Assembly (NCBI GenBank): GCA_023898385.1
Contig: CP060220.1
Span: 1,676,993-1,740,992 of the forward strand
From: Pseudobdellovibrionaceae bacterium
Lineage (GTDB): Bacteria; Bdellovibrionota; Bdellovibrionia; Bdellovibrionales; UBA1609
Direction: 5' to 3'
Length of the DNA stretch: 64,000 nt
In this document: in pieces, positions 1,061 through 21,198 of the stretch
How positions within the stretch are numbered: position 1 is the first letter of the stretch
Layout of the letters: each line of letters opens with the position of its first letter
The notes under the pieces: generated by a model
The model's input: the letters and a program-made list of their open reading frames with translations, nothing else
What the model was told of the DNA's origin: nothing
Database searches by the model: none
Made by a program: the position numbers and the translations under genes

Positions 1061-2359
1061 TCAATTGAAAAGTGGCTTAATCCAGAGGGTTTGGTTGCGC
1101 CCTGGGCCAACTGAGATCACGTCTATGGGTATCCCCAATTCCTCAGAAATGAACTGGACATACTCATGGGCCTGCCGGGGGAGATCATGGGGCGAGTTGA
1201 TTTCATCCACTTGCTCAGACCACCCCTTTAATGTGTGATAAATGGGCTTTACACGACCCAAACTGCCTGGAGTGACCGGGTACTCGGTGATCGACTCGCC
1301 ATCAAGCTCATAGGCTGTACAAACTTTGATTTCATCTAGACCGCTTAATACATCAAGCTTCATCAGTGCAATATTCGTGATTCCGTTGATACGAATGGCA
1401 TACCTTAATGCCACCAAATCCAACCATCCGCAGCGACGCTCTCGACCTGTGGTGGCGCCATATTCTCGCCCCACATCGCGAAGCCGCACTCCCACCTCGT
1501 CAGTGAGCTCTGTGGGAAAAGGACCACTGCCCACGCGAGTGGTGTAAGCCTTAGTAATTCCAATGACCTTGTCCACCATTCGTGGACCAACGCCCGCTCC
1601 CACACAAGCTGATCCCGCAATTGTGGATGAGCTTGTTACGTATGGGTATGTGCCATGCAATAAATCAAGCAACGAGCCCTGAGCACCTTCAAATAGCACC
1701 TTTTTGCCGGCCTTTAAGGACTTATGCACAAGGAGCGAGGTGTCTTTACAGCGATAGGGTGCAAGCTCTTCGGCAAGTTTTTGCACAAACTCAATGACCT
1801 CATCCACATCAACGGGTTTTTCGTTGTACATCTTCTCAAGCAGAAAATTCTTTTCTTTTAAAGACTCTGAGATTTTTTTCTTAAGACCAACCACCTCACC
1901 AAAAAGATCACCAAAAAGAATAGCTTTCCTCGCCGCTCGATCCTCGTAGGCGGGACCAATGCCTTTGCGGGTGGTCCCTATTTTCTCAAGTCCTAATGAA
2001 TTTTCTCGGGCTTGGTCTAAAAGACGATGGTATGGCAGCAATACGGTGGCTCCATCTGATATGAGCAACTGACTGGGATCCTTTAATAATCCATTGGCCT
2101 TAAGAGCGCGAATTTCATCGGCCAGGTTTTCTACGTCCAAAACCACGCCACTACCAATCACACAGGTGGTTTTAGGGTGCAGAACACCCGAAGGCACTAA
2201 ATGTAAAACCGTCTTTTGACCGTCAACAATGAGAGTGTGGCCGGCATTGGCGCCCCCTTGATAGCGGACAACCATATCGGATTGGGCAGAGAAAACGTCA
2301 ACGACCTTTCCCTTTCCCTCATCACCCCACTGTGAACCTACAACAACTATTCCTGGCAT
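1061..2359 (-). CDS. purA: adenylosuccinate synthetase
   Basis: 432 aa. N-terminal VVGSQWGDEGKGKVVD P-loop, GIGPAYEDRAARK and TTRVGSGPFPTE are hallmark PurA motifs. Confidence 0.95.
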   Translation of the reverse strand: MPGIVVVGSQWGDEGKGKVVDVFSAQSDMVVRYQGGANAGHTLIVDGQKTVLHLVPSGVLHPKTTCVIGSGVVLDVENLADEIRALKANGLLKDPSQLLISDGATVLLPYHRLLDQARENSLGLEKIGTTRKGIGPAYEDRAARKAILFGDLFGEVVGLKKKISESLKEKNFLLEKMYNEKPVDVDEVIEFVQKLAEELAPYRCKDTSLLVHKSLKAGKKVLFEGAQGSLLDLLHGTYPYVTSSSTIAGSACVGAGVGPRMVDKVIGITKAYTTRVGSGPFPTELTDEVGVRLRDVGREYGATTGRERRCGWLDLVALRYAIRINGITNIALMKLDVLSGLDEIKVCTAYELDGESITEYPVTPGSLGRVKPIYHTLKGWSEQVDEINSPHDLPRQAHEYVQFISEELGIPIDVISVGPGRNQTLWIKPLFN

Positions 2360-2371
2360 AACCTATAACCC

Positions 2372-3337
2372 TTAGCACAGCGTTTCGTCCTCTGGCCAGC
2401 CCGACCTGCCCTGCTGAAAAAAATTGATGATTTTATCCACGGCCATATCCGATGCCCGCCATTGGGCCTCATGGGTGTACGCCCCAATGTGTGGAGTCAT
2501 GACCACTTGCGGAAAGTCACGCAGCCGAGATCCCGGTGCCAGCGGCTCCTTGACGAATACATCTAATCCCGCACCGGCAAGGCGTTGCTCGTCTAGTGCA
2601 TCAATCAAGTCATTCTCATTCACCACCCGGCCTCGGCTAGCGTTGATCAAAACGGCATCAGCGGCAAAATAAGCCAAGGTCTGCCGGTTAATCAATTCTC
2701 GGGTCTCGTCAGTCAATGGCACATGCAGACTCACCACTTGCGCCTGACGCAGTAGCTCCATAAGTCCGCAACTCTCCACGCCTAGCCGTTCAAAATGACT
2801 CTCTGAAACATAGGGATCGTAGGCCACCACGTGCATATAAAAAGCCTTCGCAAGCTCTGACACTCGCGACCCAATTCGCCCAAGCCCTACAATGCCCAAT
2901 GTCTTTCCCGCAAGTTCATGGCCCACAGAAACCGACGACCGCCATTGTTTCTTGTTTATGGCAACCGCTGCCATCTGCGCCTTTCGCAAAACAGAAAGTA
3001 TCAACCAGATGGTTAGTTCGGCCGCACTTTCGGGATTAGCCATGGGAACAAACCCCACCTGCACGCGATGCTCTTTACAATGTCCTAAATCGATATGATC
3101 AAACCCACTGGTGGCCGTGACCACAACCTTTAACTCTGGAAACTGTTTTAATATTTCTGCATCAACGACCGTACCTGAACGAATTAAAAGGGCCGCCACA
3201 TCTGGACGCTCTCCCACTAAACACGAAGGTTCACATTTTTCTATAATCATCTCTGGAAGCGAAATCTTCAGCCTCGTCAGTGATTCAGCCGTATAGGGGG
3301 CCGCGACCAAAATAGTTTTAACCGGAGGGCTTATCAC
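2372..3337 (-). CDS. D-isomer-specific 2-hydroxyacid dehydrogenase, probably a short-form D-3-phosphoglycerate dehydrogenase
   Basis: NAD-binding motif GIVGLGRIGSRV, plus LINASRGRVV and MTPHIGAYT. It directly follows an aminotransferase gene with no spacer, which resembles a serine-pathway pairing. Confidence 0.8.
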   Translation of the reverse strand: MISPPVKTILVAAPYTAESLTRLKISLPEMIIEKCEPSCLVGERPDVAALLIRSGTVVDAEILKQFPELKVVVTATSGFDHIDLGHCKEHRVQVGFVPMANPESAAELTIWLILSVLRKAQMAAVAINKKQWRSSVSVGHELAGKTLGIVGLGRIGSRVSELAKAFYMHVVAYDPYVSESHFERLGVESCGLMELLRQAQVVSLHVPLTDETRELINRQTLAYFAADAVLINASRGRVVNENDLIDALDEQRLAGAGLDVFVKEPLAPGSRLRDFPQVVMTPHIGAYTHEAQWRASDMAVDKIINFFQQGRSGWPEDETLC

Positions 3338-7137: not shown

Positions 7138-8748
7138 TTGAAAAAACATCAGCCAAAACAATCAGTTATACGGTCTGCCGCGTTCATGTCTTTAGGCACC
7201 CTAAGCAGTCGCATCTTGGGGTTGGCCCGGGATATCGTGCTGGCCGCCTTTTTCTCACGCACTGTGACTGATGCTTTCGTTGTGGCCTTCCGCCTGCCCA
7301 ATATGTTTCGAAGGCTACTGGGCGAGGGATCGCTGGCGGTGAGTTTTATCCCAGTTTTTGTGGGGCAACTCAACGACGGCCGTGAAGATGGTGAGGCGCG
7401 GGCTCGCCGCTTGAGTGATGCGATTTTTACCTTACTGCTTTCAGCCACTTCGGCATTAAGTGTGGCCGGGTTCGTGTTTATGCAGCCCCTATTATCTTAT
7501 TTGGTGGGTGGCCAGGGCTATATGGCTATTCCTGGTAAATTCGAACAAACGGTGTTTCTAGCGAAAATCATGTTCGCCTATCTTTTCTTGGTCACAGCCT
7601 ATGCCTTTTTTATGGCTTTGATGAATTCACTAAAAAAGTTTTTCTTACCAGCACTGGCTCCCGCCGCATTTAATTTTGTATTGATTCTGTTTGCGCTCAT
7701 ACCGAGCGCTTGGGCTGAAGTGCCGGGCACCTTTTTGGCCTGGGGTGTGATTGCTGGCGGAGTGGCTCAGGTTCTTATCGTTGCCTGGCCGCTATGGCGG
7801 CAAGGCTATCTCCCAACACTTCGCATTGATTTCAAAGCTGAAGGCGTGAAGACCGTATTACAAAATATGGTCCCTGGGCTCATTGGCCTTGGGGTTTTAC
7901 AATTGATGAGTTTGATAAATATTCAGTTTGCCAGTCGTCTTGGCGAAGGGTCTCATTCTTATATTTATTGGGCCGATCGAATTATGGAACTACCTCAATC
8001 TCTCATAGCCGTGAGTCTTGGCGCGGCCCTTCTGCCCACGTTGAGCGAAGTCTGGAGTCAGAGCCGCCATGATGAGGCACGACAGATTACGCAAAGGCAC
8101 ATGCGACTTATCATGTTTTTATCTATCCCAAGTGCGGTGGGTATGTGGTCTCTGGCCCAGCCTATTGTGGAAGTGTTATTTATGCGCGGCCAGTTTTCCG
8201 TTGAAGATGCCGAGCTTACCGCTACCGTAGTGAAGATTTATGCTTTTCTTTTGGTAGCCACCAGTTTTCACAGAGTAATTGTCACTAGTTTTTATGCCAT
8301 TAAAAATACATGGCTTCCGGCGGTGGCTTCGGTGGTCGCCCTTGTAGCCCATGTGATTATTGCCAGCATGTGGGTTGATAAATATGGCCTTGCCGGACTT
8401 GTGGCCTCAACCACCGTTTCTGGTATTCTCAATGTGGGTATTGTGCTTGGTGCCTACCGGTACTTTATTGGGCCCGTGGGCATCTGGCCGCTCGTTAAGT
8501 CTATTTTGCACCTATCACCTGCAGCTATCACCATGGGTATTTCAGTGTTTTGGATTTATAATTTATTGTGGCAGATGATCACTCTACAAAACCTGCCCTC
8601 ATTGGGCCTTGGCCGAGCCGTAGCCCTTTTCACAGCCATTTCTGCCGGCGTTGTCATATATTTTGTTGTGAACAAAGTTATAAAACAACCGGACACGGCA
8701 GCAGTGATTTCTCTCATCAAGAAGCGACGCCAAGCAAGGAGGCCTTAG
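7138..8748 (+). CDS. murJ: lipid II flippase MurJ (MviN)
   Basis: 536 aa polytopic protein. SLGTLSSRILGLARDIVLAAFF and FRLPNMFRRLLGEGSL are MurJ signatures. It is divergent from rpsT. Confidence 0.92.
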   Translation: MKKHQPKQSVIRSAAFMSLGTLSSRILGLARDIVLAAFFSRTVTDAFVVAFRLPNMFRRLLGEGSLAVSFIPVFVGQLNDGREDGEARARRLSDAIFTLLLSATSALSVAGFVFMQPLLSYLVGGQGYMAIPGKFEQTVFLAKIMFAYLFLVTAYAFFMALMNSLKKFFLPALAPAAFNFVLILFALIPSAWAEVPGTFLAWGVIAGGVAQVLIVAWPLWRQGYLPTLRIDFKAEGVKTVLQNMVPGLIGLGVLQLMSLINIQFASRLGEGSHSYIYWADRIMELPQSLIAVSLGAALLPTLSEVWSQSRHDEARQITQRHMRLIMFLSIPSAVGMWSLAQPIVEVLFMRGQFSVEDAELTATVVKIYAFLLVATSFHRVIVTSFYAIKNTWLPAVASVVALVAHVIIASMWVDKYGLAGLVASTTVSGILNVGIVLGAYRYFIGPVGIWPLVKSILHLSPAAITMGISVFWIYNLLWQMITLQNLPSLGLGRAVALFTAISAGVVIYFVVNKVIKQPDTAAVISLIKKRRQARRP

Positions 8749-9176
8749 TGAGTCACAAAAACCCAATCGTTTTGAAAATCATATGGATGTCTTTCTTTTT
8801 GACCCTGTTTATGTATGCCTATGTTGTTGAAATGCAGGTGGGGCCGATGCCGGCGTCATTTGAGATTGATTTGTCAAATCCCGTAGCCATGGCGTTAAGT
8901 GTTGTGTCCCTTGTTATTTTGATGATGAGTTTTGTGATGCCCGCGATACTTTCGCGCGCAGCGCAAACCCCGTCGAAAGAACAAACGCCTGTTCCTCCGT
9001 CGGAATCCGCGCCTAAAGGCAACTCTAATGTGCCCCTAATTATTCGTTGGGCTTTTCTTGAAAGCATTGCAATCAATGGAATGGTGGCGTCTTTTTCATC
9101 TCAACAAAATATGATTTTGCCGTTTTTGGCTGTGTCGGCGGTTGGGTTTCTTTTGAGTTTTCCAAAGGGTCAGTGA
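8748..9176 (+). CDS. small multi-pass membrane protein, function unknown
   Basis: A GTG overlaps the murJ stop (TAGTG). There are about four hydrophobic segments. The 8568 start in the ORF track would overlap murJ by 180 nt and is unlikely. Confidence 0.45.
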   Translation: MSHKNPIVLKIIWMSFFLTLFMYAYVVEMQVGPMPASFEIDLSNPVAMALSVVSLVILMMSFVMPAILSRAAQTPSKEQTPVPPSESAPKGNSNVPLIIRWAFLESIAINGMVASFSSQQNMILPFLAVSAVGFLLSFPKGQ

Positions 9177-9371: not shown

Positions 9372-9402
9372 ATGCGGACGTACTTGTGGCGCCGTAGTTT
9401 TG
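9372..9402 (+). repeat. 31-bp direct repeat, copy 1 (ATGCGGACGTACTTGTGGCGCCGTAGTTTTG)
   Basis: Identical 31-mer at 11300-11330. The flanks outside the repeat are unrelated. Confidence 0.9.
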
Positions 9403-9596
9403 ATTAAATTTTGCTAGTGATTGTGAATACTCCCGCCTGTGAAGTGTAGACCCGCCACGGCAAGCCAAAGAGAAAAAGTATTTTGCCTCCCCGAAAAAAT
9501 AGATCGAAAAGTAGTGCTTCTTGTCCAATTTGGTTTTCGCAAATATTTCTATTCCACTTCAACATTTGGAAAATTTCTTTTTGATACAACGCCCGG

Positions 9597-10958
9597 TCAT
9601 ATACAATAAAGAGGCAGGCTTTTTAGGCGAAAGGTTACCGACTCATGCGATCCCTGCCAACGGTAGGACACGGTTTCTTCAAGCTGAGTGCGAAACTTTA
9701 AATCATAGCGAATCGCTTGATCCGTGACCTTCTGATGTTCACCCATAAACCGAATCAATGACTTCAGGCTACCGGCTTTTCCAGACTTGATCTCCACAGG
9801 AACCACTTTGTTGTCCATAGGGAGTACAAAATCCACCTCTGCGTTCTCAGGTACCTTATCCCGCAACCAGTAGTAGGTATTTGTTTTTTGTGTCTTAAAG
9901 CTATCTAGATAAAGGTGCTGGGCAGCAAATTGCTCCGCCATGTCGCCTTTGCTAAGAAGCAGATCGGGACTTAGCTCAGCGAGCTCAGACCACTTAAGGC
10001 CCATGAGACAATTATATAAACCTACATCCAGAAAAAATGTCTTAAAGACATTTCGATCTCCGGTTTTGCTTAACGGTAAGCCTGAACAGTTTGAATGAAA
10101 AACCTTTTGGGCCAAAAAGATACCCTCAAAAATGTCCAAGGCTTCCTTAATATACGGTGTTTTTGCTCGTGATAGGCGCGAATAAATTGTTTTTTTGCCT
10201 ATCTCGTAAGGCAATGAATTGAGTACATCGTGCAAGACCTCGCCTTGTTTGCCTGAAGCATACCGCTCAATGTCTTCATGGTAGGACTGCAACAAGTGTT
10301 GCTGCAGCTCACGGGCCGCCACATAGCTCCCATTGCTTTGATTAAAAGCCACTATGGCCTCCGGCATTCCACCCACAAAGAAAAAATCGGTCAGCTGTTT
10401 GACTAGCTCATTATGAATGGACTCGGTCAGTGCCGCAAAATCGCCTTGCCTGAACTGGTCAACAAATTCTGCCAATACATTTTTGCCCCTTGCCTTCAAA
10501 AACTCGTCGAAGGTGAACGGTCCAATGTAAAGATATTCTACTCGGCCCACCGGCGCTTTCAATTTCAATTGCCGCAGCACCACTTCAAGCAGGCTACCGG
10601 CAGCAATCACCGGCAATTCTGGTTTCTTTTCTTTGAAAAAACGCAGCCTGCTATAAGCTTTTTGGCTCTCTTGAATCTCATCAATAAATACTAATGAATT
10701 GGATTTAAGCTTCTTGTTTGCCACAGCCATAATTTCGTTTAGGCAACGATCTACATCGAACGAATCTTGATCGAACTCACTTATGAAGCTTTCCTCTAGG
10801 TTCACCTCCACAAGGTCTAGACCATTCACCGCAGCAAATTGCCTCACCAATTCTGTTTTGCCGACCTGCCGGGCACCCCGAATCACCAAGGGCTTACGCG
10901 AGGCCTTGATGTGCCAATCATTTAGGTGTTGAAGAGCTCCTCGCGCCAGGTAATTCAT
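9597..10958 (-). CDS. COG1373-type AAA+ ATPase with a C-terminal DUF4143 / PD-(D/E)xK-like domain
   Basis: Walker A GARQVGKT, Walker B LVFIDEIQ, and a C-terminal D-x(n)-E-x-K motif (VDFVLP...VPVEIKSGK). I prefer the start at MNYLARG (10958). The listed 11033 start would run into the tandem repeats. Confidence 0.8.
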   Translation of the reverse strand: MNYLARGALQHLNDWHIKASRKPLVIRGARQVGKTELVRQFAAVNGLDLVEVNLEESFISEFDQDSFDVDRCLNEIMAVANKKLKSNSLVFIDEIQESQKAYSRLRFFKEKKPELPVIAAGSLLEVVLRQLKLKAPVGRVEYLYIGPFTFDEFLKARGKNVLAEFVDQFRQGDFAALTESIHNELVKQLTDFFFVGGMPEAIVAFNQSNGSYVAARELQQHLLQSYHEDIERYASGKQGEVLHDVLNSLPYEIGKKTIYSRLSRAKTPYIKEALDIFEGIFLAQKVFHSNCSGLPLSKTGDRNVFKTFFLDVGLYNCLMGLKWSELAELSPDLLLSKGDMAEQFAAQHLYLDSFKTQKTNTYYWLRDKVPENAEVDFVLPMDNKVVPVEIKSGKAGSLKSLIRFMGEHQKVTDQAIRYDLKFRTQLEETVSYRWQGSHESVTFRLKSLPLYCI

Positions 10959-10996
10959 AAAATCCTCTTGTCTATTAACTACTTCATAGACATTAT

Positions 10997-11124
10997 GACG
11001 AAATACCGACCTGTTTTCAACATTTTTGGACAAAATACCGACCTGTTTTCACTATTTTTGCTAAAAAGCCGACCTATTTTAAGGTTTTTTTGTCAAAATT
11101 CCGACCTATTTGCTGTTGCTCAAA
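10997..11124. repeat. four tandem ~32-bp repeats (iteron-like) with core CCGACCT
   Basis: The units begin at 10997, 11029, 11061 and 11093. The CCGACCT cores are at 11006, 11038, 11069 and 11101 (spacing 32, 31, 32). The first two units are nearly identical: GAC(G/A)AAATACCGACCTGTTTTCA(A/C)(C/T)ATTTTTG. Confidence 0.85.
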
Positions 11125-11299
11125 GGTATCGGTAAGATAAACCAAGCCGTCGCAATTTATCTTGCTGGATATTTTCGGCATTTTTGGCAGGTCAATTCAA
11201 TTAGCGGCGAACATCGGGACATTTTTCTTAGAGCTACGAGTTGTATACGCCAAAAGATTTTGATTGAAATTTAGCAATCCACACGCGATGGCAATCTTG

Positions 11300-11330
11300 A
11301 TGCGGACGTACTTGTGGCGCCGTAGTTTTG
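11300..11330 (+). repeat. 31-bp direct repeat, copy 2
   Basis: Exact copy of 9372-9402. Confidence 0.9.
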
Positions 11331-11525
11331 TCGACATTTTTTAAGCCCTTTGATGGTCTTTTTTTTAGGAGGTCATGAATGACATTCAGAAAATACAACG
11401 GGCTTCCCCTAAAAACACTAGGGTGAGGATGTCGCGGTTAAATTTAGGTAACAGTATCGCTGTAAAACAACAGAGCCAGACAAAATTGTCTTAAAATAAG
11501 ACGATTCTGCCCACAAATACTAAAT

Positions 11526-11545
11526 TTTTGCGGTATACCGCAAAA
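11526..11545. promoter_or_regulatory. perfect 20-bp palindrome TTTTGCGGTATACCGCAAAA
   Basis: Read directly from the sequence. It sits 7 nt upstream of the TAAA -35-like element of the FG-GAP gene. It could be an operator or a weak bidirectional terminator. Confidence 0.4.
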
Positions 11546-11578: not shown

Positions 11579-11626
11579 GACTTTAGGCTAAGTCACCGGA
11601 TAGGTGGCATTTTTTATCGAACAAGG

Positions 11627-14458
11627 GTGATAACGCAATTGAAAAAAATGATGTTCGGAACGTATTTCAATCAGTCTGTGCTGCTTTACTCTGCAGTTTC
11701 ACTTGTTTTTCTTCTTGGCTGTCAACTGGGTGACAATCAAATCCACGGCCGCATCAGTGGTGCTAGCGGGGCTGGTCAGTTTCAGCCCAGTTTTTTGATC
11801 AATGGCGGTAGCAGCTATGTGTCTGCGACCAGTGTAACTTTGCAAATCGAGCCCGATGGCGCAGTGGAATATTCTGTCCACCAAGACGCCTCTCAATGTG
11901 AGTCTACCCAGAGCTGGGAGCCAATCAGTGCTTCAGCCACAATTCCCCTTGAGCATCTTAATGACCTCGTGTCGGTTTTTATTAAATTTCGCACCGCCGA
12001 CGGCCTTGAATCGACCTGCATTAGTCAATCAATCACTCATGACAGTTTGGAACCCCTTCCGCCAGATACTTTGACGTTCAATTTAAGCTCCAGCTTTGAT
12101 GCGAGCACTACACCTGAACTAAACTTCTCGGCCGCCGCTGACCAAGGCAATGGCGATATTCATCACTACGAAGCTAGAATCGTTGCTGCCGATGGCGTCA
12201 CTGAAGTGGAACCATGGGTCACTGTGGAGACAGGCTATTCATTTTCGGGCCTAACTAGTTTAACACCGGGCGATCGATATCTTGTCGAAGTTCGGTCTGT
12301 GGATAAGGCTGGTAATGTGAGCGCGGGAAATTTATCTGATATTTTCACTGATAAAATCATTGAGTCCCGAATAGAAGGCCTCACTGACGTTGTTCATGCA
12401 ATCACCCCCGTAGATCTTGATGGCGATGGTGATTTGGATATTGTTTTGTCGGCGTACGACCAATACCTTTGGGCGGAAAATCTGGATGGCCTTGGAAAGT
12501 ACAGCACATTTAAGCCTGTGAGCCTATTATCAAAAACTTACGGCGGAGCCGTCACAGTTTACGACTTTAATGGTGACGGCACCAAGGATGTGGTAGCACC
12601 CCTTAAAAACCAAATCGTTTGGTTTCCGAACCAAGTTGCAGCCTATGGTCGATTTTTAATGCCCGTCCAAATAGTCGACCTGCCGGAAGCTCCGTTTGCA
12701 ATAGATATGGGAGACTTTAATGGCGATGGTCAGCCTGACTTTATTTATTTTTTAGCCGTGGCACAGGAACTAGGCTGTGTCCTCTCAAACAGTGACGGCA
12801 GCTATTCCACCCAACCGATCCATACCGGGTTCACGATATTTCCTTATAGCAATCCCATGATTGTGGATTTTGACTCTGATGGTGATTTAGATATTGTCGC
12901 CAATTTAGGATCTGACACCGTCTTGTTTCGCAACTCCGACGGACTTGGCGCCTTCTCGGGACCTGAAGTATTGGTGTCGGGCGCTCTCCAACTGGCCCAC
13001 GGTGATCTCGATGGTGACGGTGACCCTGACTTTATTTCGTCATTGCGAGTTTACAAGAACAACGCCGGCACATTGGTACCTATGGCTGATTACGAAACAG
13101 TTAATACCTATTTTACAAACTATATAAGTCTCGTGGCTGATATGGATAGCGATGGCGATTTAGATTTTGTTACAAAAAGAGCTACGGGCAATAATCAGGT
13201 GCAATGGCATGAAAATACTGATGGCTTAGGCACGTTATCGGCAGGTGTCACTCTGGCCACTGAACTGATGGGCCAAGATATCGATGGCTTTAGTGTTCTT
13301 GATTATGATGGCGACCTGGATCTAGACGTTATAGTCGCTTTTGATGACCCATTTGATTTAGTCATGATTGAAAATACAGATGGCCACGGCGCTTTTGGAC
13401 CGGCTGACTCTGTCACCAACCAACTCACTGGGGTCTATCTTCACGACGTTGTAGATTTTGATGCCGATGGCGACCTGGACATTATTGCATTAACCGGCAC
13501 CAGTGTTGTTTGGGTTGAGAATACCGATGGTCAGGGTAAAATGAATGCCAATCACAATTTGGTATCAGATTATTTGCCGATACAAAAAAACTTGCGGGTT
13601 GTTGACATGGACGGCGACTCCGATTTGGATATCGTGACTGCTAGTACCAGTCAGATTTTTTGGTATGAGAATCTCAACCCTGGTTTCTCTGGCCGGATTG
13701 TTATTACTTCTGCGGTAAACAACCTAAAAGACTTTATCATTGCAGATATTGATAACGACAGCGATCCAGATATTTTTTCAGTTTCAGATGGCGATGAGAA
13801 AACCGCCATGTACCTCAATAATGGCGATGGAACATTTGGCTCGCAAAATGTGATCACCACGTCGTTAATAGACCCACTTTCACTACGACTGGAAGACATT
13901 GATGGCGACTCGGATTTAGATTTGGTTGTGCTAAAATATCACTACGTCAACTTTTCTACCCAACACAGAGGTGTCCATTGGATTGAAAATACCGATGGCG
14001 CAGGCACTTTTGGCACCATTCGCAACATCATGACTGGTCAGTTATGCATCAACAATACCAATATCCCTCACCCCGGATTGGAGTTTGCTGATTTAGACGG
14101 TGACGGCGACCTCGACATGGTTTGCTTTGGACTGGGTGCCAGTACGAATTCTTGGGTGAAAAACACTGACGGTGCTGGAACATTTTCAGCTCCCACGAGT
14201 TTGGGCTTCACCTCAGGGTTTTTAGAATCGTTGGATTTTGACAACGACGGCGACCTCGATTTGGTGGCTTTCAGAGCTTCAGGCCTCAATTGGTATGAGA
14301 ACACTGACGGCCTGGGAACATTCGGAGGCGAAAACCTGATCTCTAGTGGGCTAATATCGTTGTCCTATCCCACCACAGCTGATTTTAACGGCAACGGAAA
14401 ATTGGATCTCCTCGGCGTGGTCGGCAACCTATTCTCGCCCTACATTGTTCTTCGGTAG
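11627..14458 (+). CDS. large FG-GAP/VCBS-repeat lipoprotein (integrin-alpha-like, about 14 Ca-binding blades) with an N-terminal FN3-like region
   Basis: Lipobox FLLGC. Hand count of 14 Dx(D/N)xDGDxD loops (DLDGDGDLDIV, DFDSDGDLDIV and others), each near a W-x-EN-x-DG-x-G-x-F motif. The start is more likely MMFGTYF at 11648. Confidence 0.85.
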   Translation: MITQLKKMMFGTYFNQSVLLYSAVSLVFLLGCQLGDNQIHGRISGASGAGQFQPSFLINGGSSYVSATSVTLQIEPDGAVEYSVHQDASQCESTQSWEPISASATIPLEHLNDLVSVFIKFRTADGLESTCISQSITHDSLEPLPPDTLTFNLSSSFDASTTPELNFSAAADQGNGDIHHYEARIVAADGVTEVEPWVTVETGYSFSGLTSLTPGDRYLVEVRSVDKAGNVSAGNLSDIFTDKIIESRIEGLTDVVHAITPVDLDGDGDLDIVLSAYDQYLWAENLDGLGKYSTFKPVSLLSKTYGGAVTVYDFNGDGTKDVVAPLKNQIVWFPNQVAAYGRFLMPVQIVDLPEAPFAIDMGDFNGDGQPDFIYFLAVAQELGCVLSNSDGSYSTQPIHTGFTIFPYSNPMIVDFDSDGDLDIVANLGSDTVLFRNSDGLGAFSGPEVLVSGALQLAHGDLDGDGDPDFISSLRVYKNNAGTLVPMADYETVNTYFTNYISLVADMDSDGDLDFVTKRATGNNQVQWHENTDGLGTLSAGVTLATELMGQDIDGFSVLDYDGDLDLDVIVAFDDPFDLVMIENTDGHGAFGPADSVTNQLTGVYLHDVVDFDADGDLDIIALTGTSVVWVENTDGQGKMNANHNLVSDYLPIQKNLRVVDMDGDSDLDIVTASTSQIFWYENLNPGFSGRIVITSAVNNLKDFIIADIDNDSDPDIFSVSDGDEKTAMYLNNGDGTFGSQNVITTSLIDPLSLRLEDIDGDSDLDLVVLKYHYVNFSTQHRGVHWIENTDGAGTFGTIRNIMTGQLCINNTNIPHPGLEFADLDGDGDLDMVCFGLGASTNSWVKNTDGAGTFSAPTSLGFTSGFLESLDFDNDGDLDLVAFRASGLNWYENTDGLGTFGGENLISSGLISLSYPTTADFNGNGKLDLLGVVGNLFSPYIVLR

Positions 14459-19497: not shown

Positions 19498-21198
19498 GTG
19501 AAATTGACCGCTTTTCGTTGTCTCATATTTGCAGCATCTACTCTGGCGACAAGTGCCGCCTCCCTTAGGGCCATCGCCTCTGACATTACGGCACCCCCCT
19601 ACGACCTCACTGATAAGTCTGCTATTGAACAGAGATTTGACGAAATCCTACCCAGCCATGGTCATGCTGTCGCCCAAATAGATCTCGGCGTTCAGACCGA
19701 AATCGAACTCTTTAATCAATCCCTGGCTTCCATGAAGGTCTTTCGATTGAATGCGCTTAACTTTCTGTCGGATGTAGTAAAAAAAGCGGATGCAGCTGAA
19801 GTGAGTGGTGAAGACTTTGTTCTTGATCAAGAATTTAGCCATCGCCTCATGGCTGGAAGTCGACAGATCTTAAACTATCGCTACGACATTTGGTCAACAA
19901 TCAATAAATACCGTTCAATCAGTGATATACAAAAACATTCTAGACAAAAACTTTATATCAATGAAAAGCCTCCTTGGTTTGGATGGAAGACCGATAAAAA
20001 GTATGTTTTCGACACCAAAACTCCACGTGGAAAGCTTCTAATTAAAGAACTGTCTCTTGGCGTGGCAGCAGCTCTTTCACTTTACGATAATTACTTTTTG
20101 TTGATCGAATCCTTCGAGAACATTGGGTACGTAAGACGTCGACTCAATCATGGCGACCAGTCTTTCTCAATCCCATCGGATCAACTTGATGAAATATCAG
20201 ATGGAATTCGAAGTTTCTCAAATCGGGCTGCGCTTCGCGACACTCTTGAAATGCTTGATTCTTGGGCTCAAGGAAAATCAAAAGAAGAACTTGAGCAAAT
20301 GGGTGTCGCAGAATTAGTTGAAATTATTAATTCATCATTCTCGGCTTCGATTTTTCGAGCGAACCTGTTTGAACGATCAGCCATGATGCTTCAACACAGT
20401 CTTGACAAAGGATTTTTTAATGAATTGCGAGATGGTCGCATTGATTCAACAAATTCAATTACAAATTCTTTAAGCAAACTATTTGGCAACGCTGTCGGCC
20501 TCGTCGAATTCCGAAAAGGAAAACTCTTTAATGACAGCCACGTTACAAGTATGGTTCGCGGAAAACTCAAACCCCTTGATATTTTACTTGAAAAAACCCC
20601 CTTTCGCGTGACAGACCGATTTATACCTGGGCACTGGGGCCATGTGGCCATCTGGATTGGCAGCCTTGATGAACTAAAGAAGGATGGAACCTGGGATCAA
20701 CTCACTAAGACAGAACAATGGCAGAGCATCCCCGCCGATCGCAAACAAACCATTGTTAAGAATTTGCAAGATGGACATGTAATATTAGAAGCGCTTCGCA
20801 CTGGCGTTGAATTAAACTCACTGGAACACTTTCTAAATGTCGACGATTTTGTGGCCCTCAGAGTTAACAACGAAATGACAGAGAGTGATAAAGTTGAAAC
20901 CTTAGCGCGAGCACTATCACATTTTGGCAAAGAGTATGATTTCAACTTCGACATTTCTACGACCAGCAAAATAGTCTGCTCTGAACTGGCCTATCAAACT
21001 TATTTTGGTGTGAAATGGCCTACAGAAAAAACTTTAGGTCGATATAATATTACGCCCGATCATGTGGCTCAGCTAGCCATTGAAGGGGTGCCGTTCTCAG
21101 TGGTTGATTTATGGCATGATGGGCTTCGAGTGTCTGGCACACAGACTGAATTAGACTACGCATTTAACTCATTGATGATCGATAGCACCATTCAATAG
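19498..21198 (+). CDS. exported protein with a C-terminal YiiX/YaeF-type permuted NlpC/P60 (papain-like) domain
   Basis: AGGAGG lies 7 nt before GTG 19498, and there is a signal peptide. The His-then-Cys order (PGHWGHVAIWIG ... ILEALRTGVE ... YDFNFD...KIVCSELAYQTY) fits permuted NlpC/P60. Confidence 0.7.
   Translation: MKLTAFRCLIFAASTLATSAASLRAIASDITAPPYDLTDKSAIEQRFDEILPSHGHAVAQIDLGVQTEIELFNQSLASMKVFRLNALNFLSDVVKKADAAEVSGEDFVLDQEFSHRLMAGSRQILNYRYDIWSTINKYRSISDIQKHSRQKLYINEKPPWFGWKTDKKYVFDTKTPRGKLLIKELSLGVAAALSLYDNYFLLIESFENIGYVRRRLNHGDQSFSIPSDQLDEISDGIRSFSNRAALRDTLEMLDSWAQGKSKEELEQMGVAELVEIINSSFSASIFRANLFERSAMMLQHSLDKGFFNELRDGRIDSTNSITNSLSKLFGNAVGLVEFRKGKLFNDSHVTSMVRGKLKPLDILLEKTPFRVTDRFIPGHWGHVAIWIGSLDELKKDGTWDQLTKTEQWQSIPADRKQTIVKNLQDGHVILEALRTGVELNSLEHFLNVDDFVALRVNNEMTESDKVETLARALSHFGKEYDFNFDISTTSKIVCSELAYQTYFGVKWPTEKTLGRYNITPDHVAQLAIEGVPFSVVDLWHDGLRVSGTQTELDYAFNSLMIDSTIQ

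What the first reader, a model, noticed from the sequence alone, without database searches (positions are those of the whole stretch)
9372..11330. Perfect 31-bp direct repeats bracket a 1.9-kb cassette whose only gene is a COG1373 ATPase-nuclease
ATGCGGACGTACTTGTGGCGCCGTAGTTTTG occurs identically at 9372-9402 and 11300-11330, and the sequence outside the two copies is unrelated. Between them lie one gene (an AAA+ ATPase fused to a DUF4143/PD-(D/E)xK-like domain), its leader with four iterons, and about 190 nt of 3' flank. There is no integrase, transposase or terminal inverted repeat. A 31-bp repeat is far longer than an ordinary target-site duplication and looks more like a duplicated att-type core. 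This suggests a single-gene cassette moved in trans, or by an uncharacterised mechanism. COG1373-type ATPase-nuclease fusions are patchily distributed and poorly characterised. A self-contained, repeat-bounded copy is the best candidate here for an undescribed mobile or defence-like module.
Basis: partly seen in the sequence, partly recalled or inferred. Interest (0 to 1): 0.7.

Follow-up and report, generated by a model that had tools for sequence, protein, structure and literature searches.

The report
Repeat-flanked single defence-candidate gene islet
A perfect 31-bp direct repeat really does bracket a 1.9-kb segment holding one gene, but that gene belongs to an already catalogued candidate anti-phage family (PDC-S01). 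I found no sign that the segment moves; the more interesting result is that this gene family almost always carries a phased array of 32-33-bp repeats in its promoter.

Summary
The 31-mer occurs exactly twice (9372-9402 and 11300-11330), with unrelated flanks. Eight other assemblies cross the left or right junction, so it is not an assembly artefact.

The only gene (9597-10958, minus strand) is AAA_14+DUF4143. It matches PADLOC's candidate defence family PDC-S01 at E=4e-123. Its predicted fold is an ORC/Cdc6-like AAA+ ATPase with a C-terminal PD-(D/E)xK nuclease.

The four "iterons" are a family hallmark, not a feature of this cassette. Repeats with a 31-34-bp period lie just upstream of 55 of 76 and 31 of 40 homologues, against 2 of 269 control genes. 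Here the proximal copy sits inside the predicted promoter. I infer an operator array bound by the protein itself.

The 31-bp repeat is specific to this locus. I found no empty site, second copy, recombinase, terminal inverted repeat, dif-like features or foreign composition.

About 10% of homologues elsewhere are also tightly bracketed by direct repeats of 19-179 bp. These repeats differ in sequence and content, which is suggestive but unexplained.

Best reading: a fixed single-gene islet whose repeat is the scar of a one-off integration. A duplication-and-deletion remnant is the main rival. Mobility is unproven.

The parts
8748..9176 (+). Left neighbour: 142-aa hypothetical membrane-like protein downstream of murJ. 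It belongs to the host backbone, not the cassette.
   Evidence: Called gene in L001/L034. The only cluster in 5.8 billion proteins is this species.
9372..9402 (.). Left copy of the 31-bp direct repeat (R).
   Evidence: Exact match. Junction crossed by L032, L035 and L046.
9398..9414 (+). Short motif TTTTGATTAAATTTTGC, overlapping the end of left R. It recurs at 11258-11275.
   Evidence: Local alignment score 24, higher than any of 3000 random 99-nt windows.
9403..9596 (-). 3' flank of the ATPase gene (194 nt), non-coding.
   Evidence: No match to any fetched locus.
9597..10958 (-). PDC-S01 gene, 453 aa. Predicted ORC/Cdc6-like AAA+ ATPase (Walker A GARQVGKT, Walker B DEIQ), helical lid, winged-helix-like region, and C-terminal PD-(D/E)xK nuclease (D376, E389, K391).
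   Evidence: Pfam AAA_14 3e-21 and DUF4143 1.7e-25. PADLOC PDC-S01 4.4e-123. Invariant residues. AF2 pLDDT 90.6. Foldseek hits to 2fna, ORC4/5, Orc1 and RuvB.
10992..11020 (-). Predicted sigma-70 promoter, TTGAAA-17-CATAAT. The proximal repeat core lies in its spacer.
   Evidence: sequence. Consensus match only.
10997..11123 (-). Array of four direct repeats (gene-sense AAAAyAGGTCGG, period 31-32 bp). Inferred operator array for the encoded protein.
   Evidence: Equivalent arrays upstream of 55 of 76 and 31 of 40 homologues, against 2 of 269 controls.
11124..11299 (.). Distal upstream spacer of the segment. Contains the second copy of the short motif (11258-11275).
11300..11330 (.). Right copy of the 31-bp direct repeat (R).
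   Evidence: Exact match. Junction crossed by L001, L045 and L048.
11648..14458 (+). Right neighbour: 936-aa FG-GAP/VCBS repeat protein. Host backbone.
   Evidence: Pfam FG-GAP_3 1.8e-61. Called gene.

Best explanation
The segment is a fixed single-gene islet in the intergenic region between a small membrane-protein gene and an FG-GAP gene of a Pseudobdellovibrionaceae bacterium. Its cargo is a PDC-S01 candidate defence protein: an ORC/Cdc6-like AAA+ ATPase fused to a PD-(D/E)xK nuclease.

The gene brings its own promoter and four 31-32-bp-phased repeats. I infer that the protein binds these itself, one copy per three helical turns. The proximal copy sits between the -35 and -10 elements, so binding there would repress the gene's own transcription.

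The perfect 31-bp direct repeat is most likely the scar of one integration event. In that event a circular or linear copy of 'promoter array + gene' joined the chromosome through a 31-bp identity. This could be an att-type core used by a recombinase encoded elsewhere, or a short-homology Campbell-type crossover.

Shown: the repeat, the junctions, the family membership, the predicted fold, and the family-wide arrays. Inferred: that the protein binds the array, that the repeat marks an insertion, and how that insertion happened. Nothing indicates that the segment still moves.
For: - The repeat is exact and unique, and both junctions are seen in independent assemblies.
- The segment is a tight functional unit of promoter, array, gene and short flanks.
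- Relatives with a conserved rpsT-murJ pair have no ATPase or FG-GAP gene next to murJ. The ATPase gene is therefore not ancestral to this neighbourhood at family level.
- Family identity: (4.4e-123).
- Fold.
- Arrays: 55 of 76 and 31 of 40 homologue loci have a 10-of-12 match or better at lag 31-34 within 220 nt upstream (the count per single lag peaks sharply at 33, then 32), against 2 of 269 controls at lags 32-33. An Acinetobacter plasmid copy has one too.
- Within a locus the repeat copies stay alike. Between loci the sequences fall to background similarity once protein identity drops below about 45%. This fits a binding factor encoded at the locus.
- Similar tight 'repeat - array - gene - repeat' units occur at homologues: L118 (unit 1585 bp), L090 (1427 bp), L063 (1596 bp) and L172 (1629 bp). 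Flanking repeats are enriched: 8 of 73 versus 4 of 153 controls, Fisher p=0.02.
Against: - No empty site and no second copy of R in genome, metagenome or viral collections, or elsewhere in the window.
- No recombinase in the parts of the window with gene tables.
- R has no inverted sub-sites typical of tyrosine-recombinase cores (sequence inspection; one search lists none).
- GC content and codon usage of the gene are typical of the host. No copy with 90% or more identity was seen in another context among the cluster members whose contigs I fetched. A recent arrival from a distant donor is therefore unlikely.
- The closest homologues (L041-L043, 54-58% identity) lack repeats flanking the gene.
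- Flanking repeats at other homologues are heterogeneous. They contain a terminator, the array itself, or the gene's own 3' end. They can also be read as decayed tandem duplications.
- Protein binding to the array is untested.
Confidence: 0.45

Rival explanations
1. Remnant of duplication followed by deletion. The 1928-bp unit was tandemly duplicated, as happens often with this family. A later deletion removed all but the first 31 bp of the second copy, along with some downstream DNA. The repeat is then not an insertion scar and says nothing about mobility.
For: - Tandem paralogue arrays and partial duplicates are common at homologue loci. L091 has three 440-500-aa ORFs in tandem (not checked for homology). 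L042 has two genes plus a 140-bp repeat. In L063 the repeat starts inside the gene's own 3' end. In L090 the array is repeated downstream of the gene. In L118 the gene's 3' end recurs 1.5 kb downstream.
- Host-like composition.
- No recombinase, no empty site, no other copies.
Against: - It needs two events.
- No trace of a second gene copy or paralogue in the window.
- The repeat is perfect and sharply bounded.
- The closest homologues show no such remnant.
Confidence: 0.25
2. The segment is an active non-autonomous mobile cassette. R is a duplicated att core, and the segment is excised and integrated by a recombinase encoded elsewhere in the genome or on a helper element.
For: - A 31-bp perfect repeat is in the size range of identity segments at tyrosine-recombinase att sites (general knowledge).
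- A short motif recurs near both ends, like arm-type sites.
- L172 shows a homologous cassette whose 71-bp repeat duplicates the 3' end of a neighbouring gene. That is the classic signature of site-specific integration.
Against: - No empty site, circle junction or second context in any assembly. The cassette is invariant and always at the same locus across at least 8 samples.
- No recombinase nearby.
- No inverted core sites in R.
- Repeats at homologues share no sequence or structure.
Confidence: 0.12
3. Self-mobilising minimal element. The ORC-like ATPase-nuclease binds its phased repeats and cuts targets with a long stagger of about three helical turns or multiples. It inserts the 'array + gene' unit and leaves long target duplications of variable length.
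For: - The protein has a predicted DNA-binding AAA+ fold and conserved nuclease residues.
- The array period of 31-33 bp is close to the 31-bp repeat.
- About 10% of 113 homologue loci are bracketed by repeats of 19-179 bp, with unit sizes of 1.4-1.9 kb.
Against: - The array is on one side only in 42 of 43 loci, so there are no element ends.
- Repeats at L063 and L090 contain element sequence, not target sequence.
- About 90% of loci have no flanking repeat.
- No multi-copy near-identical cassettes were seen.
- No precedent for a PD-(D/E)xK/AAA+ protein acting alone as a transposase (general knowledge).
Confidence: 0.05
4. The two R copies are functional sites, for example binding sites or RNA elements kept identical by selection or gene conversion. 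They would be unrelated to how the gene arrived.
For: Perfect identity in non-coding DNA. Both copies lie in intergenic sequence at the edges of a transcription unit.
Against: - No Rfam match and no stable hairpin or terminator at R.
- The two copies are read in different frames by the overlapping short ORFs.
- R-like sequence is absent from all homologue loci and relatives.
- 31 of 31 identity with abrupt edges is atypical for regulator sites.
Confidence: 0.08
5. Assembly artefact. A de Bruijn graph loop at k=31 was wrongly threaded into the chromosome.
For: The repeat length equals a common k-mer size. Logan k=31 contigs break at R.
Against: - The source contig is 3.33 Mb.
- Both junctions are crossed by independent ENA, JGI and NCBI assemblies from different samples, with up to 8 kb of flank.
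- The Logan breakpoints are exactly those a real 31-bp repeat produces.
Confidence: 0.03

Closest known systems
PADLOC PDC-S01 (candidate single-gene defence system; AAA_14 + DUF4143, COG1373)
   Same: Full-length profile match (E=4.4e-123). Same domain order, Walker motifs and conserved PD-(D/E)xK residues. The literature describes PDC-S01 as an ATPase fused to a PD-(D/E)xK domain and as very common (PMC12988326; DUF4143 is listed as PD-(D/E)xK in PMC3424549).
   Different: Here the gene sits among housekeeping genes, not in a defence island. Defence activity of the family is unvalidated; one representative gave no protection against T4, T5 or T7 (bioRxiv 10.1101/2024.09.26.614923). I found no mention of the upstream phased repeat array in the papers I searched.
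ORC/Cdc6-type initiators and iteron-binding plasmid Rep systems
   Same: The predicted fold matches archaeal AAA+ SSO1545, ORC4/5 and Orc1. Directly repeated sites lie next to the gene at an integral number of helical turns, overlapping its promoter. Autoregulated iteron Rep genes are arranged this way (general knowledge).
   Different: No replicon context. The family occurs as cargo on plasmids of 24 kb or more, never as the sole gene of a small plasmid. It carries a nuclease domain that initiators lack. No sequence homology to Rep families.
Integrase-less islets flanked by att-type direct repeats (cis-mobilisable elements, decayed genomic islands)
   Same: Direct repeats of tens of bp bracket a small cargo segment that has no recombinase of its own.
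   Different: No tRNA or gene 3' end as target. No helper element, no empty site and no inverted core sites were identified.
Xer-dependent elements (IMEX, pdif modules)
   Same: Recombinase-less cassettes bounded by sites of about 28 bp.
   Different: R is not an AT-rich imperfect palindrome. GC skew does not switch at the site. pdif modules have inverted, not direct, sites (general knowledge).
Integron gene cassettes
   Same: Single-gene units separated by repeated recombination sites and moved in trans by an integrase.
   Different: R is 31 bp, not palindromic, and lacks the RYYYAAC...GTTRRRY ends. The cassette has its own promoter. No intI and no cassette array here.

Membership tests
PADLOC PDC-S01 | Full-length match to a PDC-S01 profile HMM | tested here: met
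   PDLC04788: E=4.4e-123, residues 4-452 against profile positions 2-433 of 448.
PADLOC PDC-S01 | AAA_14 ATPase followed by DUF4143, with Walker A/B and PD-(D/E)xK catalytic residues | tested here: met
   Pfam. G28-K34, D93/E94, D376, E389 and K391 are invariant in 21 sequences.
PADLOC PDC-S01 | Embedded among other defence genes (the basis on which the candidate was proposed) | tested here: not met
   Neighbours are murJ, rpsT, holA, lptE, purA, and FG-GAP and peptidase genes.
PADLOC PDC-S01 | Confers protection against phage or plasmid | not testable with these tools
   Needs experiment. One family member tested elsewhere was negative (10.1101/2024.09.26.614923).
Site-specific integrative element (att-flanked) | Direct repeats at both ends, equal to the attB/attP identity segment | tested here: met
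   31 of 31 identity at 9372 and 11300.
Site-specific integrative element (att-flanked) | Recombinase in the element or nearby | tested here: not met
   None in the segment. None in gene tables covering about 0.7-24, 30-37 and 42-62 kb. The rest of the genome was not available.
Site-specific integrative element (att-flanked) | Empty site or excised circle exists | tested here: inconclusive
   None found. No close relative lacking the segment was available, and k=31 graphs cannot distinguish the forms.
Site-specific integrative element (att-flanked) | Same element in more than one genomic context | tested here: not met
   All fetched contigs of the 90% cluster are collinear with the window. The only deviation is the probably chimeric tail of L045.
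DDE/other transposon with target-site duplication | Terminal inverted repeats, a transposase, and a short fixed-length duplication | tested here: not met
   No inverted repeats at the ends. No transposase. A 31-bp duplication is far above usual lengths (general knowledge).
Xer/dif-dependent element | dif-like 28-bp imperfect palindrome at the replication terminus | tested here: not met
   Sequence of R. GC skew is negative across the whole window with no switch.
Integron cassette | attC site with inverted core sites; intI or a cassette array nearby | tested here: not met
   R lacks attC structure. No array in the window.
Iteron-type replicon | The gene plus iterons suffices as a replicon (small plasmids built on it) | tested here: not met
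   All 61 plasmid records with homologues listed in the output are 24 kb or larger and carry it as cargo.

The most novel reading that the evidence does not exclude
PDC-S01 genes are the core of a minimal self-propagating cassette. The ORC-like ATPase-nuclease recognises its own phased repeat array and inserts the 'array + gene' unit with long target duplications of variable length (about 30-160 bp). This would explain the family's enormous patchy spread and the roughly 10% of copies that are tightly bracketed by direct repeats.
Probability: 0.06. Interest if true: 0.85.

Novelty: new member of a known kind. Interest (0 to 1): 0.4.

Why it matters
The cassette itself is a modest finding: one more copy of a very common, uncharacterised candidate defence gene, with an insertion-like scar. 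The broader result matters more. PDC-S01 is reported as the fourth most common defence candidate in prokaryotes, and its mechanism is unknown.

Three observations now give concrete experiments: the ORC/Cdc6-like predicted fold, the conserved nuclease residues, and a near-universal promoter-embedded array of 32-33-bp-phased, locus-specific repeats. Together they predict a sequence-specific DNA-binding ATPase-nuclease that controls its own expression. This can be tested by footprinting, reporter assays, and asking whether foreign repeat-bearing DNA triggers the nuclease.

If the excess of repeat-bracketed copies proves to reflect cassette movement, it would also explain how this family spreads.

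Tried and rejected
1. **31-mer in public collections.** An exact search found nothing in GTDB representative genomes, JGI metagenomes or IMG/VR. The species is evidently absent from the first two. The JGI contig L048, which does carry R, was not in the scanned set.

2. **Empty site through relatives.** 29 MurJ loci were fetched, but the best shares only 54% identity and synteny ends at murJ.

3. **Empty site through exact-protein look-ups.** I looked up both neighbours, the ATPase and cluster variants. Every contig is collinear with the occupied form or ends at R.

4. **Homologues of the 142-aa neighbour.** Only this species has it.

5. **RNA gene as integration target.** No tRNA, tmRNA or Rfam family lies at or near R.

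6. **dif/IMEX.** Rejected on sequence and GC skew.

7. **Dispersed repeat.** There are no further copies or partial copies of R or its flanks in the window or in 0.89 Mb of fetched loci.

8. **Replication-initiator reading of gene plus iterons.** Rejected because the family is never the sole gene of a small plasmid.

9. **Transposon-end reading of the array.** Rejected because the array is one-sided in 42 of 43 loci.

10. **Foreign-composition test.** Negative.

11. **Empty-site searches for repeat-flanked homologues on viral contigs (L172, L160).** None found.

12. **A second '31-bp' case in L004.** This raised the idea of a fixed 31-bp duplication or a k-mer artefact. The length distribution of exact repeats across 0.96 Mb shows no peak at 31, so I treat it as coincidence.

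13. **Solved structures by sequence.** None found.
Full report
**1.

The 31-mer ATGCGGACGTACTTGTGGCGCCGTAGTTTTG is present exactly at 9372-9402 and 11300-11330. It occurs nowhere else in the window even with three mismatches, and shuffles gave zero matches. Identity ends at the 31-mer.

The interval contains one credible gene on the minus strand, its 194-nt 3' flank, and an upstream region with four direct repeats. There are no terminal inverted repeats.

The true start is the ATG at 10958, which is preceded by AAGAGGA. The homologues and the PADLOC profile start there. The 478-aa TTG version is an over-call.

**2. It is not an assembly artefact**

- An exact-protein look-up found a 99.87%-identical contig of MAG GCA_020434665.1 with both repeat copies.
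- ENA contigs from different biosamples cross the left junction (L032, L035, L046).
- L045 (ENA) and L048 (JGI) cross the right junction.
- Logan contigs, built with k=31, break precisely where a true 31-bp repeat forces them to. The loop unitig L031 is 9373-11329 (1957 bp), L036 ends at 9401, and L040 starts at 11301.
- The neighbouring protein is on record on a 3.33-Mb contig of a Pseudobdellovibrionaceae MAG. This is presumably the source of the window.
- Across all samples the segment is invariant apart from single SNPs.

**3. What the gene is**

- Pfam gives AAA_14 plus DUF4143.
- PADLOC-DB gives PDC-S01 at E=4.4e-123 over the full length.
- Walker A, Walker B and a D...ExK triad (D376, E389, K391) are invariant among 21 homologues.
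- DUF4143/COG1373 was classified as PD-(D/E)xK in PMC3424549.
- An AlphaFold model (pLDDT 90.6) matches an archaeal AAA+ ATPase (2fna), then ORC4/ORC5, Orc1/Cdc6 and RuvB. This is the initiator-type layout of AAA+ domain, lid and winged helix, followed by a beta-rich nuclease domain.
- PDC-S01 is described as the fourth most common defence candidate in prokaryotes. It remains unvalidated (PMC12988326), and one representative did not protect E. coli against T4, T5 or T7 (10.1101/2024.09.26.614923).

So the gene is a new member of a catalogued but mechanistically unknown family. It is not an undescribed module. Here it lies among housekeeping genes, not in a defence island.

**4. The "iterons" are a family hallmark**

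The four repeats have CCGACCT cores at 11006, 11038, 11069 and 11101. The proximal one lies in the spacer of a TTGAAA-17-CATAAT promoter.

| Set | Loci with a 10-of-12 match or better at lag 31-34 within 220 nt upstream |
|---|---|
| Three closest homologues (54-58% identity) | all three; period 32-33, different but related sequence |
| Metagenome and close-homologue loci | 55 of 76 (per-lag count peaks at 33, then 32; 19 also at lag 66) |
| Viral-contig homologues | 31 of 40 |
| Acinetobacter plasmid copy | present |
| Control upstream regions (lags 32 and 33 only) | 2 of 269 |

Repeat sequences differ completely between distant homologues, yet the copies within one locus stay alike. Between-locus similarity falls to background below about 45% protein identity. 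The locus-specific repeat is found downstream of the gene in only one of 43 loci, so these are not element ends.

Together with the ORC-like fold, the simplest reading is an operator array bound by the encoded protein, one site per three helical turns, repressing its own promoter. This is an inference and nothing here tests binding. I found no mention of this array in the papers that name DUF4143, COG1373 or PDC-S01.

**5. What the 31-bp repeat is**

It is locus-specific. R and its flanks match nothing in 0.89 Mb of fetched loci, nothing else in the window, and nothing in the three public collections.

- No tRNA, tmRNA or Rfam element is at the site.
- R is not dif-like, and GC skew does not switch there.
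- No recombinase appears in the gene tables covering most of the window.
- The gene's GC content and codon usage are typical of the host.
- Every fetched contig from its 90% protein cluster sits at this same locus.
- A 17-18-nt motif (TTTTGATT(G)AAATTTwGC) occurs at the inner edge of left R and again 25 nt inside right R. Its score is better than any of 3000 random windows. Its meaning is unknown.
- Relatives are too distant to provide an empty site (MurJ 54% or less, no synteny).

The insertion reading therefore rests on geometry alone: a tight promoter-array-gene unit with a perfect, sharply bounded duplication.

**6. A pattern in the family that I cannot fully explain**

Eight of 73 metagenome homologue loci and three of 40 viral-contig loci have significant direct repeats on both sides of the gene. 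Controls gave 0 of 24 MurJ loci and 4 of 153 ORFs, two of which were flanked by paralogues. Fisher p ranges from 0.02 to 0.002 depending on definition.

The clean cases are tight units:

| Locus | Repeat | What the repeat contains | Unit size |
|---|---|---|---|
| L118 | about 62 bp | the upstream gene's terminator hairpin | 1585 bp |
| L090 | 76 bp | the two array repeats themselves | 1427 bp |
| L063 | 163 bp | starts inside the ATPase's own 3' end | 1596 bp |
| L172 | 71 bp | the 3' end of a convergent neighbour gene, a classic integration signature | 1629 bp |

The repeats share no sequence and differ in what they contain. Tandem paralogues and partial duplicates are also common at these loci. 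Some of the repeats may therefore be decayed duplications rather than insertion scars. Empty-site searches for two of these loci failed.

**7. Verdict**

Most likely (0.45): a fixed single-gene PDC-S01 islet whose 31-bp repeat is the scar of one integration through a short identity. The mechanism and any helper are unknown.

| Rival | Confidence |
|---|---|
| Remnant of tandem duplication plus deletion | 0.25 |
| Active cassette moved in trans | 0.12 |
| Functional repeated sites | 0.08 |
| Self-mobilising element with long staggered cuts | 0.05 |
| Assembly artefact | 0.03 |

Its interpretation is only partly supported: the gene family is already catalogued, the iterons are regulatory-looking family features, and mobility has no positive evidence. 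Interest is moderate. It comes mainly from the family-wide promoter array and the ORC-like fold, which make an abundant unknown defence candidate experimentally approachable.

Noticed in passing
window 10997-11123; L041 5864-5959; L042 569-649; L065, L076, L083, L084, L093 and many others (220 nt upstream of each homologue): Arrays of 2-5 direct repeats with a 32-33-bp period lie immediately upstream of most PDC-S01 homologues (55 of 76 and 31 of 40 loci, against 2 of 269 controls). Sequences are locus-specific but the copies within a locus stay alike. I found no description of this in the papers searched.
   Followed up: yes
L118 2740-2800/4325-4385; L090 2864-2939/4291-4366; L063 1029-1190/2625-2787; L172 1526-1596/3155-3225; L160 2705-2753/4464-4512: About 10% of homologue loci have the gene tightly bracketed by direct repeats of 19-179 bp. 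The repeats vary in content: a terminator, the array itself, the gene's own 3' end, or a neighbour gene's 3' end. They are enriched over controls, but their origin is unresolved.
   Followed up: partly
L043 4792-4900 and 5758-5864: A PIN/RHH toxin-antitoxin pair next to a PDC-S01 homologue is itself bracketed by an imperfect direct repeat of about 110 bp (unit about 966 bp). The second copy lies just upstream of the ATPase's repeat array.
   Followed up: no
L004 1990-2020 and 4519-4549: Another Bdellovibrionales MAG has a perfect 31-bp direct repeat (CTTCAAAGAGGAGGAGTTTGAGCTCAAACCC). It brackets 2.5 kb holding an unannotatable 648-aa repetitive ORF, about 0.5 kb from rpsT-murJ. The length match with the window's repeat looks coincidental, since there is no peak at 31 in the repeat-length distribution.
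   Followed up: partly
L045 2067-2508: An ENA contig follows the window from 11664 down to the ATPase stop codon. It then switches to GC-rich sequence encoding a cupin/cysteine-dioxygenase-like fragment, with only about 8 nt of overlap. It is probably a chimeric contig, though this was not proven.
   Followed up: partly
window 11526-11545: A perfect 20-bp palindrome, TTTTGCGGTATACCGCAAAA, lies in the intergenic region upstream of the FG-GAP gene. A terminator-like hairpin follows at 11592-11608.
   Followed up: no
window 11376-11495: A 39-codon ORF (MNDIQKIQRASPKNTRV...) with a strong AGGAGG ribosome-binding site lies just right of the right repeat copy. It is too short to have been listed or called.
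   Followed up: no
window 1436-2527, 7275-7395, 20043-20050: All 27 differences between the window and the sister MAG contig fall in three tight clusters. This suggests local recombination tracts rather than evenly spread mutation.
   Followed up: no
L042 152-291 and 6069-6208: A 140-bp exact direct repeat spans a 5.9-kb stretch holding two AAA_14/DUF4143 genes next to a HipA toxin gene. This looks like a tandem paralogue arrangement in a defence-like neighbourhood.
   Followed up: no
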